Shown piece after piece: positions 2,639-6,933 of a DNA stretch of 64,000 nt (within the stretch, counting starts at the first letter, position 1; every line of letters starts with the position of its first letter). The position numbers and the translations under genes were made by a program. The DNA is from an uncultured SAR86 cluster bacterium. Its GTDB lineage: Bacteria > Pseudomonadota > Gammaproteobacteria > Magnimaribacterales > AG-339-G14. The notes below the pieces were generated by a model. It worked only from the letters and a program-made list of their open reading frames with translations. It was not told the DNA's origin and made no database searches. The stretch is from NCBI GenBank assembly GCA_902594855.1, contig CACJNS010000001.1, positions 561,335-625,334 of the forward strand, written 5' to 3'.

Positions 2639-2658
2639 CCCTAAAATCCTTTTTAAAA

Positions 2659-2704
2659 TGGTGCCCAGAGGTGGAATCGAACCACCGACACAAGGATTTT
2701 CAGT
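2659..2704 (-). repeat. Island-distal att repeat: displaced 3' 46 nt of tRNA-Phe
   Basis: tggtgcccagaggtGgaatcgaacCaccgacacaaggattttcagt matches 6858-6903 at 44/46 positions. It lacks the tRNA 5' half, so it is a fragment and not a gene. Confidence 0.9.
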
Positions 2705-2754
2705 TCTTTACAAGTAGTCGTAAACACTTATTACTACAATGTTTTTAATAATAG

Positions 2755-2827
2755 TGTGTTAAAAAATGTGTTAAATGACTAACTTTAGTGTGTTAGTCGA
2801 TGCCTTCTAAAGTGCTGAATTAACACA
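2755..2827. repeat. Left-end array of TGTGTTA(A/G) motifs (candidate arm-type/iteron sites)
   Basis: tgtgttaa at 2755 and 2767, tgtgttag at 2789, inverted ttaacaca at 2820, and a degenerate agtgttaa at 2931. The same motifs recur at 6740-6811. Confidence 0.6.
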
Positions 2828-2964
2828 TTATTCTTGTCTCTCTAGACATTTTTATCATATCAAAAAAATATGTGTTTTTTTTAAAAAAGTCCCTTACCAA
2901 AATTGAACTTCCATGAGATTATGAATGTGTAGTGTTAAAAACTACTTTTTTATAAATATAGTTA

Positions 2965-3465
2965 ATGAAAATGAAAAATGAATATCAAAAGTTCTTTAGT
3001 GCTGATTGCTTTACGCATCATATAACTTTATCTCCTTCACATCTAAACGAATATTCAATATTGCCTCTAATACGAAAAATAGAATTTAAATTAAATAAGA
3101 TTTTTCTAAATTCTAATTTTCCAAAATATGTGACTACAGATAAATTTAAATTTTTTATTTTTCCTGAAGACTCTGATAGACATTTACAACATTTTCATAT
3201 GCTTCTCTATTCTCCCTCAAAGAAAGAACGAGAAAGTAAAAGTAAAGATTATTGCATTGCATGTAAATTCATAGAAAAACCATTTTTTGAAACCTGTGAT
3301 TTTTGCACAGCAAGAGTTTTAAATGATTTGTTTGCTGAAGAAATTCCGAATGTAGATGTTCAAGTCAATATTACATCTGACTTTGACCATTACGATAATT
3401 TTTACGCAACAAAGAAACAAAGATTTGAATTAGATTATAAAGATAGTTATCTAGTGTGTTCATAA
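2965..3465 (+). CDS. Putative miniature HUH rolling-circle Rep-like protein (Rep_1/pC194-pUB110-like motif order) with CxxC...CxxC insert
   Basis: Ordered motifs: I FTHHITLS, II HLQHFHMLLY (HUH + hydrophobics), III NFYATKK (YxxK). The spacings of ~57 and ~70 aa are similar to pUB110 Rep, and PNVDVQVNI resembles its PNVKVQMI segment. CIAC-x13-CDFC lies between motifs II and III. Confidence 0.45.
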   Translation: MKMKNEYQKFFSADCFTHHITLSPSHLNEYSILPLIRKIEFKLNKIFLNSNFPKYVTTDKFKFFIFPEDSDRHLQHFHMLLYSPSKKERESKSKDYCIACKFIEKPFFETCDFCTARVLNDLFAEEIPNVDVQVNITSDFDHYDNFYATKKQRFELDYKDSYLVCS

Positions 3466-3467
3466 TT

Positions 3468-3523
3468 GCTGCTCTATCTTGAGAGTAATTTAACTATCTG
3501 TTCATGCAGTTCTACTTCTGCAT
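3468..3523 (+). other. Candidate double-strand origin: nick-site-like TATCTTGAGAGTAAT plus small hairpin
   Basis: CTTGA at 3478-3482, 13 nt after the Rep-like stop, resembles the CTTG/ATA nick core of the pC194 family and phiX174. ATGCAG-N8-CTGCAT hairpin at 3504-3523. Confidence 0.3.
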
Positions 3524-3607
3524 TGTGATTTCTATTATCTGAAAAAACATAAATAGTAATATGAAGACATCATCAAAAATAAAACAATTACAAAGAAGAT
3601 TACAAAC

Positions 3608-3811
3608 ATGAAAAGAAAAAATTACTCATCAAATCCTCTGCAAGTTCGATTGCATACAATTACAGAAGAATCTCTGAATAATTTAATTCAAGATAATGAA
3701 TATTGTCAGAAGAAGAATATTATTTCTAAATCTGATGCTGTTCGTTCTGCATTATTTAATTTCTGCAAAGACTACGAGTCTTATAAATTTAATAAATTAA
3801 ATTCACTTTAA
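3608..3811 (+). CDS. Putative ribbon-helix-helix (CopG/Arc-like) DNA-binding protein
   Basis: The LQVRLHTITEESLNNLIQ...SKSDAVRSALFNF pattern fits beta-strand/helix/helix of RHH regulators. 67 aa. Confidence 0.4.
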   Translation: MKRKNYSSNPLQVRLHTITEESLNNLIQDNEYCQKKNIISKSDAVRSALFNFCKDYESYKFNKLNSL

Positions 3812-4015
3812 ACACTACATGAAAACACTAATAAAAGAGTGTATGTGCTTGGGGAGAAATCAGTTCTAGTCGACTAATATATCGGGAAATTTTTAAGAAA
3901 AAATATGAAATCTCAACCTTTGAAAAAACACATTAATGATTTAAAGAAACAATTAAATCAAATCAAGAAAGATATAACTGCACTCGAAAAACTTTTTGTA
4001 AATTTAGAGAAAGAT

Positions 4016-4768
4016 CTATAAATCAATATAGGCATCAAACATTTCTTTAAAGTCAGATGATTTGACTAATCTTATGCCTCCACCATGATTATGTTTTTTA
4101 CCAATATTTGTGCCTGAACGATATACACCCAGTCTGTTATCGTATCTTGCTTTACCTTCTTTGATTAACTTAATGCATTTTTCGAAATTAAATCCCATAA
4201 ATGCTTTGCCTTCTATGTATTTAAAATGTGTTCTACCATCAATTTTTTCTTCTTCTGCTTTCACAACAAATGTATTTTTAAGTTTTGAACTTGCAGTTCT
4301 TAATGAGTCAAAAGTCCAATAAACACTTGAATCTATTGGTTTTTCATTAAGGTCACAAAGTAATATTTTTAATTTATGTTCAGCATCATCAATCTGTATT
4401 TTCATTTTGTATTTGCCATATACTACTGACCATCTATGTGCATAAATTGATGTTCTGAAAACTTTGATATGAGGATACTCTTCATCACTTATGCCCCAGT
4501 TTTCCCTCATATATTCATCACCTTTTTCAGGAAAATCAGGTTTACAGGTGAAAAGACTTGCTGCAGATTTTGTATGTTGTCTTTGACTCTTACATTCCCA
4601 ACCTTCAAAGTCAGCATCTTTTAGATTATTTTCCTGAACACCTAGAATTGTTTCAAAAGTATTTCCAATTGCTCCATCGTTTTTTTCTGCAAATGGTTTG
4701 TCACTTTCAATGAAACCAAGATTTTTGATTCGTTGGAATTCTGATTTAACTCTATTTACATCTACCAC
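4016..4768 (-). CDS. Type II restriction endonuclease, MvaI/BcnI family
   Basis: Matches my recollection of R.MvaI: GAIGNTFETILG, catalytic DADFEGWECKS (D...ExK), SSVYWTFDSL and RLGVYRSGTNIGKKHNHGGGIRL. GTG start, directly downstream of the methyltransferase. Confidence 0.75.
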   Translation of the reverse strand: MVDVNRVKSEFQRIKNLGFIESDKPFAEKNDGAIGNTFETILGVQENNLKDADFEGWECKSQRQHTKSAASLFTCKPDFPEKGDEYMRENWGISDEEYPHIKVFRTSIYAHRWSVVYGKYKMKIQIDDAEHKLKILLCDLNEKPIDSSVYWTFDSLRTASSKLKNTFVVKAEEEKIDGRTHFKYIEGKAFMGFNFEKCIKLIKEGKARYDNRLGVYRSGTNIGKKHNHGGGIRLVKSSDFKEMFDAYIDL

Positions 4769-4802
4769 AAATAAAGCATGCCATATGCTTTATTATTTGT
4801 GG
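4765..4802 (-). promoter_or_regulatory. M-R intergenic hairpin that base-pairs the GTG start of the endonuclease gene
   Basis: The mRNA-sense sequence CCACAAAUAAUAAAGCAUAUGGCAUGCUUUAUUUGUGG folds into 15 bp with a 3-nt bulge and a 5-nt loop. The GUG at 4768-4766 lies in the basal stem, and no Shine-Dalgarno sequence precedes it. Confidence 0.55.
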
Positions 4803-4807
4803 AGTCA

Positions 4808-5557
4808 TTATTCAGTAAAAAGGTCTTCTGATTTCTTTAGTCTATCTTCTGAAATATCAATATATTTCTTACTTATCTCACTTCCTAGATATTTTCTCTT
4901 TAGTCTTTTTGCAACAACTGCTGTCGTTCCAGTTCCCATAAATGGGTCATAGACAACATCACCTTCTTCAGAGAAATTCTCTAAAATTTTTGCAACTAAT
5001 TCTTTTGGGAAAACTGCTCCATGATTTTCTCCCCCACGACTTCTTTCTCTTTTAATTTCCCATATATCATCAAGAGTTCCTCTTTCAAAACTTCCTCTTT
5101 TTCTATATTGCCTACTAATCGGATAATCTTTATCAAAAACAAGAATTAGTTCTGTTCTTCTATTAAGAACTTGTTTTTGTATAGAGGGTTGAGCATTTCC
5201 TTTATCCCATACAATAATATCTTTAAGATATTCAGAAAATTCACCTATCATCTTAAAAATTGACCTCTTGCTGCCTGTGACGATTTGAATGTTATAGAAA
5301 ATTAATTCACTTACTCTAATCAATTCCCTTAAGATCTCTGTATGAAGTTTGTTGTATTCATCAATCGGAAGATTATCATCAAACTCTGTGTATTTTGTGC
5401 TAATTTCTTTAACAATTTGTCGTGAACAATACTCTCCATTTCTTATTCTTAAATTCATATTGTAAGGTGGAGAAGTGATGACTAAATCAACAGAGTCATC
5501 TTTCATCTTCTTTAAAGTTGAAAGACAATCTTCATGATAAATTTTATTTAGTTTCAT
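4808..5557 (-). CDS. Beta-class N4-cytosine (or N6-adenine) DNA methyltransferase
   Basis: Motif IV DLVITSPPYNM lies N-terminal to motif I VVYDPFMGTGTTAVVA (beta permutation). SPPY rather than DPPY favours m4C, matching MvaI/BcnI-type systems. Confidence 0.85.
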   Translation of the reverse strand: MKLNKIYHEDCLSTLKKMKDDSVDLVITSPPYNMNLRIRNGEYCSRQIVKEISTKYTEFDDNLPIDEYNKLHTEILRELIRVSELIFYNIQIVTGSKRSIFKMIGEFSEYLKDIIVWDKGNAQPSIQKQVLNRRTELILVFDKDYPISRQYRKRGSFERGTLDDIWEIKRERSRGGENHGAVFPKELVAKILENFSEEGDVVYDPFMGTGTTAVVAKRLKRKYLGSEISKKYIDISEDRLKKSEDLFTE

Positions 5558-5582: not shown

Positions 5583-6731
5583 TTATATAACTCGCAAGAA
5601 CTCTTTTAAATCAGTATTTAACTGACTTTTCGGAAAATAGAAGTCATCAATCATTTTCAGTGATGTGTCTGCTCTTCTTGCAATTTGAATATGACTAATT
5701 TTTGTATTCATAAGATTCATGATTATTGATGTATGTCTTAAAGAATATGCAGTGCAATTATTGCCATCATCATCTGTTCTCAAATCACATCTCTCAAGTA
5801 AAGTTCTAAATTGTGCAGTCATTACACGCATTGCATGTCTTCTGTTTTGATGCTCATTTAAAAATAAGAAATCAGATTTTTTCCAACCTTTATTTCTTTT
5901 CTTCATATCTCTAAAAATATAACTTCCAGTAGATAGAGTCTGAACAGACATCTGTTGATTTTTTCTATTAACTTTAAATTGTAGATATTCTGCTTTTGTA
6001 TCTTTTTCTTTTTTCTCTTCAATATCACCATAACGAAGAGAGTAAACTTCAGAGATAGTAGGTCTTAACATACTAGACATCATGAACACTATAAAATCAT
6101 GTAAATCATATGTAATCGTATATCTAGTGCCATTGTGCATCACGACACTTTCTCCAATGAGTTCTAACGACTTCTTTTGTAGTTTCTTATACGAATCTCT
6201 AGTAAAGAATCCTCTGCGTTCAGATTTGACTCCTCGAATTTTAGAAAATTTCACATAATTTTCTGCCATATCTAAAATTTGTCGAAGTAAAGAACGATGT
6301 TTATTGATTGTTGATTTTGCAAGTTGTCTTTCTTTGTGCAAGTTAGTGAAAAAATCTTCTGTATCTTCTCTAGTAATTGATTGAACTTCACGATTTTTGA
6401 AAAACTCTAAAATTCCATTTTTACGATTGAGTAGAGAAGTGACTTCTTTTTCTGCACTGATGCCACTTGCTGTAATTTTGCCTTTTGTTCTTTCTATGAT
6501 TTTGTTTGCAAAATGCTCGATTGTCTTATCTTTATCAAATATGAGTTTTTTGCTACCAGTCATCAAATCTTGCTGATATTCAAATGCTTTCTTTCTTGCT
6601 TCAGTTTGTGATGTTGTTTTTAGTGATTTGCGATGCTGTTTTCCATCTACATTGATACATACATACCAATTTTGACTGCGATTACGAGTGTAGATACTCA
6701 TGTAATCAAATAATTTAATTGTCTTGCTCAT
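5583..6731 (-). CDS. int: Tyrosine recombinase / phage-type integrase
   Basis: C-terminal catalytic signatures MLRPTISEVYSLRYGDI (box I Arg), AYSLRHTSI (HxxR) and MIDDFYF (Tyr). Adjacent to the tRNA-Phe attachment site. Confidence 0.9.
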   Translation of the reverse strand: MSKTIKLFDYMSIYTRNRSQNWYVCINVDGKQHRKSLKTTSQTEARKKAFEYQQDLMTGSKKLIFDKDKTIEHFANKIIERTKGKITASGISAEKEVTSLLNRKNGILEFFKNREVQSITREDTEDFFTNLHKERQLAKSTINKHRSLLRQILDMAENYVKFSKIRGVKSERRGFFTRDSYKKLQKKSLELIGESVVMHNGTRYTITYDLHDFIVFMMSSMLRPTISEVYSLRYGDIEEKKEKDTKAEYLQFKVNRKNQQMSVQTLSTGSYIFRDMKKRNKGWKKSDFLFLNEHQNRRHAMRVMTAQFRTLLERCDLRTDDDGNNCTAYSLRHTSIIMNLMNTKISHIQIARRADTSLKMIDDFYFPKSQLNTDLKEFLRVI

Positions 6732-6739
6732 TCAAACCC

Positions 6740-6811
6740 TTAACACACTTGAGATACAAGAATTAACACACAAATAATGTGTTAAAGTGTGTTAGTAGTT
6801 ATCATAACACA
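6740..6811. repeat. Right-end array of TGTGTTA(A/G)/TTAACACA motifs
   Basis: ttaacaca at 6740 and 6763, tgtgttaa at 6778, tgtgttag at 6788, ataacaca at 6804. The pair aatgtgttaaa + agtgtgttagt occurs at both island ends with different spacing. Confidence 0.6.
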
Positions 6812-6857
6812 TAAAATGATTAAAAATGTCTGAAAGTGTTGATTTTACTGCATTTGA

Positions 6858-6933
6858 TGGTGCCCAGAGGTAGAATCGAACTACCGACACAAGGATTTTC
6901 AGTCCTTTGCTCTACCAACTGAGCTATCTGGGC
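6858..6933 (-). tRNA. tRNA-Phe (anticodon GAA)
   Basis: The reverse complement reads GCCCAGATAGCTCAGTTGGTAGAGCAAAGGACTGAAAATCCTTGTGTCGGTAGTTCGATTCTACCTCTGGGCACCA. It forms a 7-bp acceptor stem, has a CTGAAAA anticodon loop and a TTCGATT T-loop, and encodes CCA. It is close to E. coli tRNA-Phe. Confidence 0.95.

What the first reader, a model, noticed from the sequence alone, without database searches (positions are those of the whole stretch)
2965..3465. Miniature HUH (Rep_1-like) protein with an inserted CxxC...CxxC motif
The 166-aa ORF shows the three rolling-circle Rep motifs in Rep order. Motif I is FTHHITLS (FxTLT-like). Motif II is HLQHFHMLLY (HUH plus hydrophobics). Motif III is NFYATKK (YxxK). 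The motif I-II spacing (~57 aa) and II-III spacing (~70 aa) are close to what I recall for pUB110/pC194 Rep. The PNVDVQVNI segment echoes PNVKVQMI in pUB110 Rep. It is roughly half the size of plasmid Reps and carries CIAC-x13-CDFC between motifs II and III. A Rep on an integrase island suggests replication after excision, or single-strand transfer.
Basis: partly seen in the sequence, partly recalled or inferred. Interest (0 to 1): 0.7.

Follow-up and report, generated by a model that had tools for sequence, protein, structure and literature searches.

The report
Small HUH nuclease on SAR86 mini-island
A 166-residue gene on a 4.25-kb island inserted in a tRNA gene of a marine SAR86 bacterium most likely encodes a very small DNA-nicking enzyme of the HUH type, from a family with no existing annotation, and probably lets the island copy itself once it has cut itself out of the chromosome.

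Summary
The ORF (2965-3465, +) and its motifs are real. About 25 close protein clusters keep FTH-ITL, H76-F-H78, four Cys (97/100/111/114) and Y147-x-x-K-K. In a wider family reaching 15% identity, H76 is invariant and H78 and Y147 are at least 90% conserved.

An AlphaFold model (pLDDT 81) puts HFH on a strand and Y147 on a C-terminal helix. It matches predicted viral proteins (best E 1.2e-4), and every named hit is an HUH replication initiator. Pfam hits are all below threshold. The most frequent is PF23343 (30 of 57 members), and the next are also replication-initiator or transposase families that carry the HUH motif. A profile-profile comparison with PF23343 proteins aligns all three motifs (P 0.0015, probability 17%). 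So it is HUH-like, but not Rep_1.

The gene sits in a 4.25-kb island at tRNA-Phe, together with an integrase and a restriction-modification cargo. A 3-kb relative carries only rep, two small ORFs and int. The rep module also travels with other recombinases, and distant relatives sit directly after short integrase genes.

Best reading: it starts rolling-circle replication of the excised island (about 0.5). Nicking, the origin and excised circles are all untested.

The parts
2658..2709 (.). attL: 52-nt partial copy of the 3' part of tRNA-Phe, forming the left island boundary
   Evidence: Direct repeat D1, 94% identical to 6857-6908
2755..2827 (.). Cluster of four TGTGTTA heptamers (three on +, one on -) between attL and rep. 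Candidate protein-binding repeats: integrase arm sites, operators or Rep iterons
   Evidence: 14 copies in the whole 64-kb window, 9 of them in the island, all in two clusters beside the att cores. GTGTT repeats also lie upstream of rep in serine-recombinase elements
2929..2945 (+). Small hairpin GTAG-TGTTAAAAA-CTAC, 20 nt upstream of the rep start, with GTGTTAA across the stem-loop junction. It overlaps a promoter-like site (2935-2962). Candidate operator or nick hairpin
   Evidence: Conserved in most lineages, with one GTAT/ATAC variant; promoter-like match
2965..3465 (+). rep-like gene: 166-aa HUH-type protein. Motif I at residues 16-22, H76-F-H78, Cys4 insertion at 97-114, Y147 (with Y143)
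3464..3490 (+). Hairpin 1, directly after the rep stop codon
   Evidence: Predicted in every lineage folded. RNAalifold finds 6 pairs, 4 of them with compensatory changes
3504..3523 (+). Hairpin 2 (ATGCAG-N8-CTGCAT). Its 3' arm ends exactly where the conserved block starts. It also fits a weak intrinsic-terminator pattern
   Evidence: Other lineages have ATGTCA/TGACAT, GTCAT/ATGAC or TGTCATC/GATGACA at the same place
3521..3561 (+). Conserved non-coding block CATTGTGATTTCTATTATCTGAAAAAACATAAATAGTAATA. The core TGTGAT..CTATTRTCTGA is kept whatever gene follows. Candidate origin/nick region, or the promoter of the downstream genes
   Evidence: Present downstream of rep in at least 35 loci whose Rep proteins are only about 60% identical. 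A single copy in the window. TATCT occurs 4 times in direct orientation in 3440-3545, against 0.26 expected
3562..3612 (+). 16-codon remnant (MKTSSKIKQLQRRLQT) of the 122-131-aa gene that follows rep in most relatives. A 306-nt internal deletion is responsible
   Evidence: L008/L007/L020 carry the intact gene; L009/L010 share the deletion
3608..3811 (+). 67-aa conserved partner ORF of the rep module, function unknown. Its ribbon-helix-helix look is by eye only
   Evidence: Homologues follow rep in 12 or more distinct loci, including serine-recombinase elements. No Pfam or PDB support
4016..4768 (-). Cargo: MvaI/BcnI-family restriction endonuclease
   Evidence: PF15515, E 3.3e-47
4808..5557 (-). 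Cargo: N4/N6 DNA methyltransferase
   Evidence: PF01555, E 3.9e-40
5583..6731 (-). Integrase (tyrosine-recombinase type), facing inward next to the tRNA
   Evidence: Phage_int_SAM_1 at 24.4 bits is above its 22.3-bit cut-off; Phage_int_SAM_4 at 26.5 bits is just below its 27-bit cut-off. The C-terminal YSLRHT ... DDFY is read directly from the sequence
6741..6811 (.). Cluster of five TGTGTTA heptamers between the integrase start and attR
6857..6933 (-). attR core (6857-6908) inside the intact tRNA-Phe(GAA) gene (6858-6933)

Best explanation
The ORF encodes a very small, single-domain nuclease of the HUH superfamily. Its motifs are in the 'Rep' order: motif I strand, then HUH, then the catalytic tyrosine. 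A Cys4 (probably zinc-binding) loop is inserted after the HUH strand. It belongs to a family that has no Pfam model and no named member.

It is the replication gene of a 4.25-kb integrative element of a SAR86 bacterium. The proposed sequence of events is:
1. The integrase excises the element from tRNA-Phe as a circle.
2. The HUH protein binds a cis site next to its own gene. The candidates are the two hairpins plus the conserved block at 3464-3561, or the hairpin and GTGTTA repeats just upstream of rep.
3. It nicks one strand through Y147, with a metal ion held by H76/H78.
4. The free 3'-OH primes rolling-circle replication by host helicase and polymerase.
5. The excised element is thereby multiplied or maintained before it re-integrates or transfers.

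Shown here: the motifs and their conservation, the predicted fold, the island structure, and the linkage of the gene to integrases. Inferred: nicking, the position of the origin, the existence of the circle, and rolling-circle replication.
For: - Family conservation is concentrated on the catalytic candidates. H76 is invariant, and H78 and Y147 are at least 90% conserved over 57 sequences reaching 15% identity.
- AF2 model: pLDDT 81, pTM 0.78, order beta1-alpha1-beta2-beta3(HFH)-insert-alpha2-beta4-alpha3(Y147).
- Foldseek against BFVD: 7 hits at E<=1e-3, best 1.2e-4 (TM 0.54/0.69). All six named hits in the top 50 are parvovirus NS1, a Cressdnaviricota Rep or a microvirus replication initiator.
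- 30 of 57 members give sub-threshold hits to PF23343. The next recurrent families are Gemini_AL1 and Y1_Tnp, with single hits to Phage_GPA and Rep_1.
- PF23343 is a genuine HUH Rep model: Pf3 ORF278 and phiX174 A match it at about 6e-8.
- hhalign of the family against 33 PF23343 proteins gives P 0.0015 over 110 columns, with motif I, HUH and Y aligned in order.
- Context: the island is bounded by tRNA-Phe repeats and has an inward-facing integrase. A 2.97-kb relative holds only rep, orf130, orf66 and int. The rep module recurs with three different recombinase sets. Distant relatives lie 30-70 bp downstream of ~195-aa integrase genes.
- Conserved hairpins and a conserved block flank the gene.
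- Precedent: pSAM2-type elements integrate in tRNA genes and replicate by rolling circle through RepSA (PMC2440964).
Against: - No curated HUH model reaches its threshold: 17.1 bits against 27.8 for PF23343.
- The hhalign probability is only 17%.
- Foldseek against solved structures gives nothing below E 0.03, and generic ferredoxin-like folds are mixed with the HUH domains.
- No model coordinates were available, so His-Tyr proximity was not checked.
- No circular contig and no attP junction was found among 65 related loci.
- The family is absent from the phage, plasmid and IMG/VR collections, so no autonomous replicon carrying it is known.
- Hairpin 2 plus the conserved block could simply be a terminator followed by a promoter.
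- No candidate nick sequence is established.
Confidence: 0.5

Rival explanations
1. The HUH protein is a relaxase-like enzyme. It nicks an origin of transfer so that a single strand of the excised element can be exported, either by conjugative mobilisation or by packaging. The small downstream ORFs would be accessory DNA-binding proteins.
For: The HUH evidence is the same as for the main explanation. The cis layout is a hairpin followed directly by a conserved single-copy block. From memory only, this resembles oriT sites where the nick lies a few bases 3' of an inverted repeat. Small conserved partner ORFs follow the gene.
Against: The motif order is HUH before Tyr. By established knowledge of the superfamily, this is the Rep/transposase order rather than that of classical Mob relaxases. 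The island has five ORFs, and none of them is a coupling protein or a secretion component. The partner ORFs have no detectable relaxosome-type domain.
Confidence: 0.15
2. The protein works with the recombinase rather than in replication. It could be a Y1-type single-strand transposase-like enzyme. It could also be an accessory that makes or processes single-stranded or hairpin DNA for the integrase, or that controls the direction of recombination.
For: Its size (166 aa) and single conserved Tyr resemble IS200/IS605 TnpA, and 3 of 57 members give weak Y1_Tnp hits. IS200-type and REP-associated transposases appear among the weak structural hits. The family is tightly linked to integrase genes across large distances, including ~195-aa integrases placed 30-70 bp upstream on the same strand.
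Against: The element ends are tRNA-derived direct repeats typical of integrase action, not subterminal hairpins. The conserved block occurs once in 64 kb. The best structural and profile matches are to replication initiators.
Confidence: 0.15
3. The protein has an HUH-like or ferredoxin-like fold but is not a nuclease. It would be a DNA-binding regulator (with the zinc loop) of the element's promoters, and the motif resemblance to catalytic residues would be structural.
For: No curated family threshold is reached. The PDB fold search is not significant. Repeats that could be operators sit at both the rep and the int promoter regions.
Against: The few columns conserved across the whole family are exactly the two His and the Tyr. 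That pattern is hard to explain for a non-catalytic protein. The Cys4 loop is absent from most of the family.
Confidence: 0.1

Closest known systems
pSAM2-type actinomycete integrative elements (RepSA, pC194-class rolling-circle replication; PMC2440964)
   Same: Both integrate in a tRNA gene through a tyrosine integrase and carry their own HUH-type replication initiator. In pSAM2, replication of the excised circle by rolling circle is documented.
   Different: pSAM2 is 10.9 kb and carries conjugation (Tra) and regulatory genes. It is found in Actinobacteria. Here the element is 3-4.3 kb, has no transfer genes, sits in SAR86 Gammaproteobacteria, and its protein is roughly half the size of typical plasmid Reps (from memory). 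The window protein has no PF20199 (RepSA) match.
PF23343 REP_ORF2-G2P proteins (for example Pseudomonas phage Pf3 ORF278 and the phiX174 A protein core)
   Same: Motif I, HUH and Y-x-x-K are in the same order and align in a profile-profile comparison. This is the most frequent weak Pfam hit across the family.
   Different: Scores stay below the gathering threshold (17 against 27.8 bits). Those proteins are 278-513 aa and belong to ssDNA phages. They have no Cys4 insertion, and the ones examined here (Pf3 ORF278, phiX174 A) are phage genes, not genes of an integrase island.
Tycheposons and related tRNA-targeting islands of streamlined marine bacteria (bioRxiv 10.1101/2020.12.28.424599)
   Same: The layout is the same: an inward-facing site-specific integrase at the tRNA end, a small replication module at the opposite end, and cargo between them. 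In this window the cargo is a restriction-modification pair. The host is a streamlined marine bacterium.
   Different: The replication genes described for tycheposons are primases, helicases and polymerases, and the words HUH and rolling do not occur in that text. Tycheposons are described there as similar in size to 10-20-kb elements. Membership of the tycheposon integrase lineage was not tested.
Minimal HUH enzymes: IS200/IS605 TnpA, REP-associated tyrosine transposases, SIRV1 ORF119 Rep
   Same: All are single-domain HUH proteins of 119-166 aa with one catalytic Tyr C-terminal to the HUH motif. They show up as weak sequence or structure hits.
   Different: None of those hits is significant. 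Those enzymes act on hairpins at element or genome ends. Here the element ends are integrase att repeats.

Membership tests
HUH endonuclease superfamily | HUH motif: two His separated by a bulky hydrophobic residue, lying on a beta-strand | tested here: met
   H76-F77-H78. H76 is invariant and H78 at least 90% conserved in 57 sequences. The motif lies on predicted strand 76-82.
HUH endonuclease superfamily | Catalytic Tyr (Y-x-x-K type motif) on a helix; located after the HUH motif in the Rep/transposase class | tested here: met
   Y147-A-T-K-K. Y147 is at least 90% conserved family-wide and lies on predicted helix 143-149. A second Tyr (Y143, position i-4) is at least 90% conserved only in the close clade.
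HUH endonuclease superfamily | Fold: ferredoxin-like beta-alpha-beta-beta-alpha-beta core similar to known HUH domains | tested here: met
HUH endonuclease superfamily | Significant sequence or profile similarity to a curated HUH family | tested here: inconclusive
   All Pfam hits are below threshold (best E 2.3e-4 among relatives, 6.9e-3 for the window protein). hhalign against a PF23343 profile gives P 0.0015 and probability 17%. The PDB profile search gives only E 0.5-0.8 to SIRV1 ORF119 and to a replication-associated protein.
HUH endonuclease superfamily | His pair and Tyr close enough in space to form one active site | not testable with these tools
   Model coordinates are not returned. 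Only the secondary-structure order is available.
HUH endonuclease superfamily | Metal-dependent site-specific ssDNA cleavage with a covalent 5'-phosphotyrosine intermediate | not testable with these tools
   Requires biochemistry.
Rep_1 (PF01446; pUB110/pC194 plasmid Reps) | Match to the PF01446 profile | tested here: not met
   The window protein has no hit at E<=1. One of 57 relatives reaches E 0.1. tblastn against 72,556 plasmids finds nothing.
Rep_1 (PF01446; pUB110/pC194 plasmid Reps) | Conserved pC194-type nick sequence (CTTGATA, recalled from memory) next to rep | tested here: not met
   CTTGA occurs in the hairpin-2 loop of some lineages, but other lineages have CTAGA, GTTAA, CATGA or CACGA there, and the window has TTCTACTT. 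The window's TCTTGAG at 3476-3482 is not conserved.
PF23343 REP_ORF2-G2P | Score at or above the Pfam gathering threshold (27.8 bits) | tested here: not met
   17.1 bits, covering only residues 52-94.
IS200/IS605 TnpA (PF01797 Y1_Tnp) | Profile match, and subterminal hairpins at the element ends | tested here: not met
   3 of 57 members hit, with best E 0.032. The element ends are 52-nt tRNA-derived direct repeats.
Classical Mob relaxases | Catalytic Tyr N-terminal to the histidine motif (established knowledge of the superfamily) | tested here: not met
   The order here is HUH (76-78) and then Tyr (147).
Integrative rolling-circle elements of the pSAM2 type | tRNA-gene integration by a tyrosine integrase, plus an element-encoded HUH Rep | tested here: met
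   att repeats at tRNA-Phe, an integrase, and the HUH-like gene are all on one 4.25-kb island. The Rep assignment carries the caveats given in the HUH rows.
Integrative rolling-circle elements of the pSAM2 type | Conjugative transfer gene (FtsK-like Tra) and demonstrated replication of the excised circle | tested here: not met
   None of the island's five ORFs is a transfer gene. No circular contig or attP junction was found. Replication itself cannot be tested here.
Tycheposons | Inward-facing integrase at the tRNA end, replication module at the other end, cargo between | tested here: met
   The order is attL, rep module, restriction-modification cargo, int, attR/tRNA. The definition is quoted from 10.1101/2020.12.28.424599.
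Tycheposons | Tycheposon-specific integrase lineage and shared hallmark gene profiles | not tested

The most novel reading that the evidence does not exclude
This HUH family may be an obligate partner of site-specific recombinases across many bacteria. It occurs in SAR86 elements of only about 3 kb (int, HUH and two small ORFs). It also occurs as bare 'short integrase (195 aa) then HUH (160 aa)' gene pairs in unrelated high-GC genomes. That would define a new class of minimal integrative replicons. In the boldest version, the HUH enzyme produces a single-stranded circle or folded hairpin that is itself the substrate of the recombinase, as happens in other systems that recombine single-stranded DNA.
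Probability: 0.1. Interest if true: 0.8.

Novelty: new variant of a known kind. Interest (0 to 1): 0.55.

Why it matters
SAR86 is among the most abundant uncultured marine bacteria, and how its streamlined genome gains and loses genes is poorly known. If the reading is right, the core mobile unit is a 3-kb element: an integrase, a 166-residue HUH initiator and two small ORFs. This unit carries restriction-modification cargo and swaps recombinases. That would make it one of the smallest self-replicating integrative elements. It would also add HUH rolling-circle modules to the primase/helicase modules described for marine tRNA-targeting islands.

The protein family has no Pfam model, and none of the homologues listed carried a functional name. 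It is widespread in marine metagenomes, and its distant branches are also linked to integrases. Annotating it would therefore flag many unnoticed mobile elements. As a very small HUH domain with a defined neighbouring DNA target, it could also be of practical interest as a covalent DNA-tagging enzyme.

Tried and rejected
- **Direct family searches of the window protein.** PHROGs and NCBIfam gave no hit. PDB sequence searches gave nothing for the single protein or the close-family profile.
- **Searches in public collections.** The phage and plasmid collections (tblastn, E<=1) gave no match. IMG/VR and the GTDB representative genomes gave pattern hits only, with no true relatives.
- **Circular forms.** No terminal repeats were found on any of 65 related contigs. 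No contig joined the integrase end to the rep end across a single att core. L020 stops inside the core and is uninformative. L007 joins a different integrase to rep across a scaffold gap and is better read as a mosaic relative.
- **Ribbon-helix-helix idea for the 67-aa ORF.** Neither Pfam nor a PDB profile search supports it, so it is kept only as an impression.
- **The 122-131-aa ORF and the other accessory ORFs.** No family was found.
- **M13 gene II, SpV1 'ORF2' and Pf3 ORF301 as HUH references.** On reading the translations they lack the HUH motifs, and the last two look like P-loop proteins. Pf3 ORF278 and phiX174 A were used instead.
- **tRNAs or direct repeats around the distant 'short integrase + HUH' pairs.** None were found.
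- **A pC194-type nick site.** Rejected as not conserved.
- **2H-phosphoesterase reading of H-I-T in motif I.** Rejected because H18/H19 are not conserved in the wider family.
Full report
**1. The observation**

The window has an ATG-started ORF at 2965-3465 (+) encoding 166 aa.
- FTHHITLS at residues 16-23
- HLQHFHMLLY at residues 73-82
- NFYATKK at residues 145-151

The spacing is about 57 aa from motif I to HUH and about 70 aa from HUH to Tyr. The cysteine motif is CIAC-x10-CDFC (C97, C100, C111, C114), not x13.

A search of 5.8 billion proteins found 25 clusters, almost all of 164-191 aa, at 47-98% identity. All come from marine metagenomes, and none has a Pfam domain or a name. In their alignment the invariant residues include F16 T17 H18 I20 T21 L22, H76 F77 H78, all four Cys, and Y147 K150 K151. 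The ORF is therefore a real, conserved gene, and the motifs are its most constrained parts.

**2. A wider family**

A profile search of 1.84 billion representative proteins found 56 proteins with E<=1e-3, mostly 160-230 aa. A second profile search of the clustered database added more.

In alignments of 41 and 57 sequences, identity to the window protein falls to 14-15%. Only a few columns stay conserved:
- H76 and P84 are invariant.
- K45, F52, H78 and Y147 are at least 90% conserved.
- The consensus reads ...RF.F..F.EG......H.H.LLH.P ... Y.SK.

The Cys pairs occur only in the subclade that contains the window protein, so they are an insertion rather than part of the core. A second tyrosine, Y143, four residues before Y147, is at least 90% conserved only in the close clade.

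**3. Is it HUH?**

*Sequence evidence.* The window protein has one weak Pfam hit, to PF23343 REP_ORF2-G2P. It has E 0.0069 and 17.1 bits against a 27.8-bit cut-off, and covers residues 52-94. Across the 57 family members:
- 30 hit PF23343 (best E 2.3e-4)
- 5 hit Gemini_AL1
- 3 hit Y1_Tnp
- 1 hits Phage_GPA
- 1 hits Rep_1

From my own knowledge of these families, all of them carry the HUH motif. The remaining weak hits are scattered, each found in only one or two members.

I checked that PF23343 models a true HUH core. Pf3 ORF278 carries LTLTV, PHLHCAAFF and QYVSKH. The phiX174 A protein carries FDTLTL, HFHAVHF and YVAKYVNK. Both match PF23343 at about 6e-8.

hhalign gave these results:

| Comparison | P | Probability | Columns |
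|---|---|---|---|
| Family vs Pf3 ORF278 alone | 0.026 | 1.9% | 106 |
| Family vs profile of 33 PF23343 proteins | 0.0015 | 17% | 110 |

In both comparisons motif I, HUH and the Tyr motif align in order. This target was chosen because Pfam pointed to it, so the P value is supportive rather than decisive.

Profile searches of PDB sequences gave only E 0.5-0.8. The hits were SIRV1 ORF119, a 119-aa chain aligned at its HYH motif, and a replication-associated protein aligned at the Tyr motif.

*Structure evidence.* With the 25 close homologues the AF2 model was mediocre (pLDDT 68). With the 41-sequence alignment it reached pLDDT 81 and pTM 0.78. The order of elements is:
- strand 16-22 (motif I)
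- helix 29-48
- strands 62-68 and 76-82 (HFH)
- a low-confidence Cys loop
- helix 112-126
- strand 132-136
- helix 143-149 (Y143 and Y147)

To my knowledge this is the Rep-class HUH topology.

Foldseek against solved structures gave nothing below E 0.03. HUH nuclease domains were among the weak hits: AAV Rep, B19 and MVM NS1, PCV2 Rep, a vientovirus Rep and an IS200 transposase. They were mixed with unrelated ferredoxin-like folds.

Foldseek against predicted viral structures (BFVD) gave 7 hits at E<=1e-3, the best at 1.2e-4 with TM 0.54/0.69. All six named hits in the top 50 are HUH replication initiators: four parvovirus non-structural proteins, a Cressdnaviricota Rep and a microvirus replication initiator.

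Coordinates are not returned by the tool, so the His-Tyr geometry named in the finding's refutation test could not be measured.

*Conclusion.* I put HUH-superfamily membership at about 0.85. Rep_1 (pUB110/pC194) membership is not supported.

**4. The element**

tRNA-Phe(GAA) lies at 6858-6933 (-). A 52-nt copy of its 3' part at 2658-2709 is 94% identical to 6857-6908. These two copies bound a 4.25-kb island with 29.7% GC, against 35-38% in the flanks.

The gene order is:
- rep-like (+)
- a 16-codon remnant
- a 67-aa ORF (+)
- an MvaI/BcnI-family endonuclease (-)
- an N4/N6 methyltransferase (-)
- an integrase (-) beside the tRNA

The host is a SAR86-cluster gammaproteobacterium. The window's PurH is 94% identical to that of SAG AH-287-I17.

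**5. Relatives of the element**

I retrieved 65 loci.

- **Near-identical islands exist with and without a 306-nt internal segment** of a 122-aa gene between rep and the 67-aa ORF. The window, L009 and L010 carry the deletion; L007, L008 and L020 do not.
- **L043 is a 2.97-kb element** between the same tRNA-Phe repeats. It holds only rep (164 aa), orf130, orf66 and the integrase. These four genes are the core, and the restriction-modification pair is cargo.
- **The rep/orf122-131/orf67 module recombines with several recombinase sets.** It occurs with a 407-aa tyrosine integrase plus a 195-aa resolvase (L007, L012). It occurs with large and small serine recombinases (L001, L025). In L048 an integrase lies directly upstream on the same strand.
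- **The link to integrases extends to distant branches.** For three of five distant relatives examined (about 16% identity, high-GC contigs), the gene starts 30-70 bp after a ~195-aa Phage_integrase gene on the same strand. A fourth lies near an integrase fragment.

The link between this family and site-specific recombinases is therefore old and recurrent.

**6. Candidate cis sites**

*Downstream of rep.* Every lineage has the following layout:
- a hairpin directly after the stop codon (window 3464-3490), with 6 consensus pairs, 4 of them showing compensatory changes
- a second hairpin (window 3504-3523)
- a conserved block that begins exactly where the second hairpin's 3' arm ends (window 3521-3561)

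The core of the block is TGTGAT..CTATTRTCTGA.

The stem of the second hairpin is ATGCAG/CTGCAT in the window lineage. Elsewhere it is ATGTCA/TGACAT, GTCAT/ATGAC or TGTCATC/GATGACA. The structure is kept while the sequence changes.

The block is nearly invariant among loci whose Rep proteins are only about 60% identical. It is retained whichever of two different downstream modules follows. It occurs once in the window. TATCT occurs four times in direct orientation in 3440-3545, against 0.26 expected.

The second hairpin also fits a weak terminator pattern, and the block could be a promoter.

*Upstream of rep.* A small hairpin GTAG-TGTTAAAAA-CTAC (2929-2945) sits 20 nt before the start codon. 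It overlaps a promoter-like site and is conserved in most lineages.

*Repeats.* The heptamer TGTGTTA occurs 14 times in 64 kb. Nine copies lie in the island, in two clusters: 2755-2827 and 6741-6811. Both sit just inside the att cores. In an excised circle they would flank attP, and they also cover the rep and int promoter regions. GTGTT repeats also precede rep in serine-recombinase elements. They may therefore belong to the rep module rather than to the tyrosine integrase.

Which of these sites, if any, is the origin cannot be decided from sequence.

**7. Mechanism**

The best-supported reading is a compact Rep-class HUH nuclease that initiates rolling-circle replication of the excised island. 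The closest documented precedent is pSAM2-type elements. These integrate in tRNA genes and replicate by rolling circle through RepSA (PMC2440964). The layout also matches the tycheposon definition, with the integrase at the tRNA end, a replication module at the other end and cargo between. The replication genes described for tycheposons are primases, helicases and polymerases (10.1101/2020.12.28.424599).

The rivals are:
- a relaxase-like role in single-strand transfer
- a role coupled to the recombinase
- a non-catalytic regulator

No excised circle, autonomous replicon or nick site was observed, so the functional steps are inference.

**8. Verdict**

The finding is real. The HUH reading is supported and the Rep_1 label is not. 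The family is undescribed and consistently tied to integrases. It is a new variant of a known kind. Its interest is moderate to high for people who study mobile elements in marine bacteria.

Noticed in passing
window 4016-5557: The island's cargo is a complete restriction-modification pair: an MvaI/BcnI-family endonuclease (PF15515, E 3e-47) and an N4/N6 methyltransferase (PF01555, E 4e-40). Homologues at about 76% identity sit beside the rep module in L041 and L042. There, three large ORFs on the other side look like a type I R-M system, but that is judged from their N-terminal sequences only.
   Followed up: partly
window 3562-3612 vs L008:1004-1372: The window variant has an internal 306-nt deletion of the 122-aa gene that normally follows rep. 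It leaves a 16-codon ORF whose stop still overlaps the start of the 67-aa gene. Three metagenome contigs share the same deletion (L009, L010 and one more without DNA). The shortened element is therefore circulating in nature.
   Followed up: partly
window 2755-2827 and 6741-6811: The TGTGTTA heptamer is strongly clustered. Nine of the 14 copies in 64 kb lie just inside the two att cores, and a related GTGTTAA lies across the stem-loop junction of the hairpin at 2929-2945. It is unknown whether these bind the integrase, the HUH protein or a small partner ORF.
   Followed up: partly
L043:25-3080: A 2.97-kb relative at the same tRNA-Phe site contains only rep, orf130, orf66 and int. It is bounded by the same tRNA-derived repeats. 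It is a candidate for one of the smallest integrative elements carrying its own replication gene.
   Followed up: partly
L148:197-1300, L151:2830-3932, L156:806-1966: Distant family members (about 16% identity, high-GC contigs) sit 30-70 bp downstream of a ~195-aa Phage_integrase-domain gene on the same strand. No tRNA or direct repeat was found nearby.
   Followed up: partly
L025:63-7734: A relative with large and small serine recombinases upstream of rep lies a few genes from ORFs that look like glmS, glmU and ATP synthase genes. That identification rests on N-terminal sequences only. The element may be inserted near glmS.
   Followed up: no
L007:1-5387: This scaffold joins the same R-M pair to a different 407-aa integrase, and then, across a run of N, to an identical rep gene followed by a resolvase. 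It also repeats about 55 nt (window 3966-4020) at positions 1-55 and 4577-4631. It could be a mosaic relative, a tandem array or a mis-scaffold.
   Followed up: partly
window 3533-3540 and homologous blocks: In most relatives the conserved block contains TATTGTCT; the window itself has TATTATCT. From memory, TATTGTCT is identical to the eight bases preceding the nick in the R388 (TrwC) origin of transfer, which also follows a hairpin. This recollection is unverified, and an 8-mer match may be chance.
   Followed up: no
window 2935-2971: The only promoter-like match upstream of rep ends 3 nt before the ATG. Relatives keep TAAATA 8-13 nt before the start codon, with no obvious ribosome-binding site. 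The rep mRNA may be leaderless, or translation may start at the second ATG (2971).
   Followed up: no
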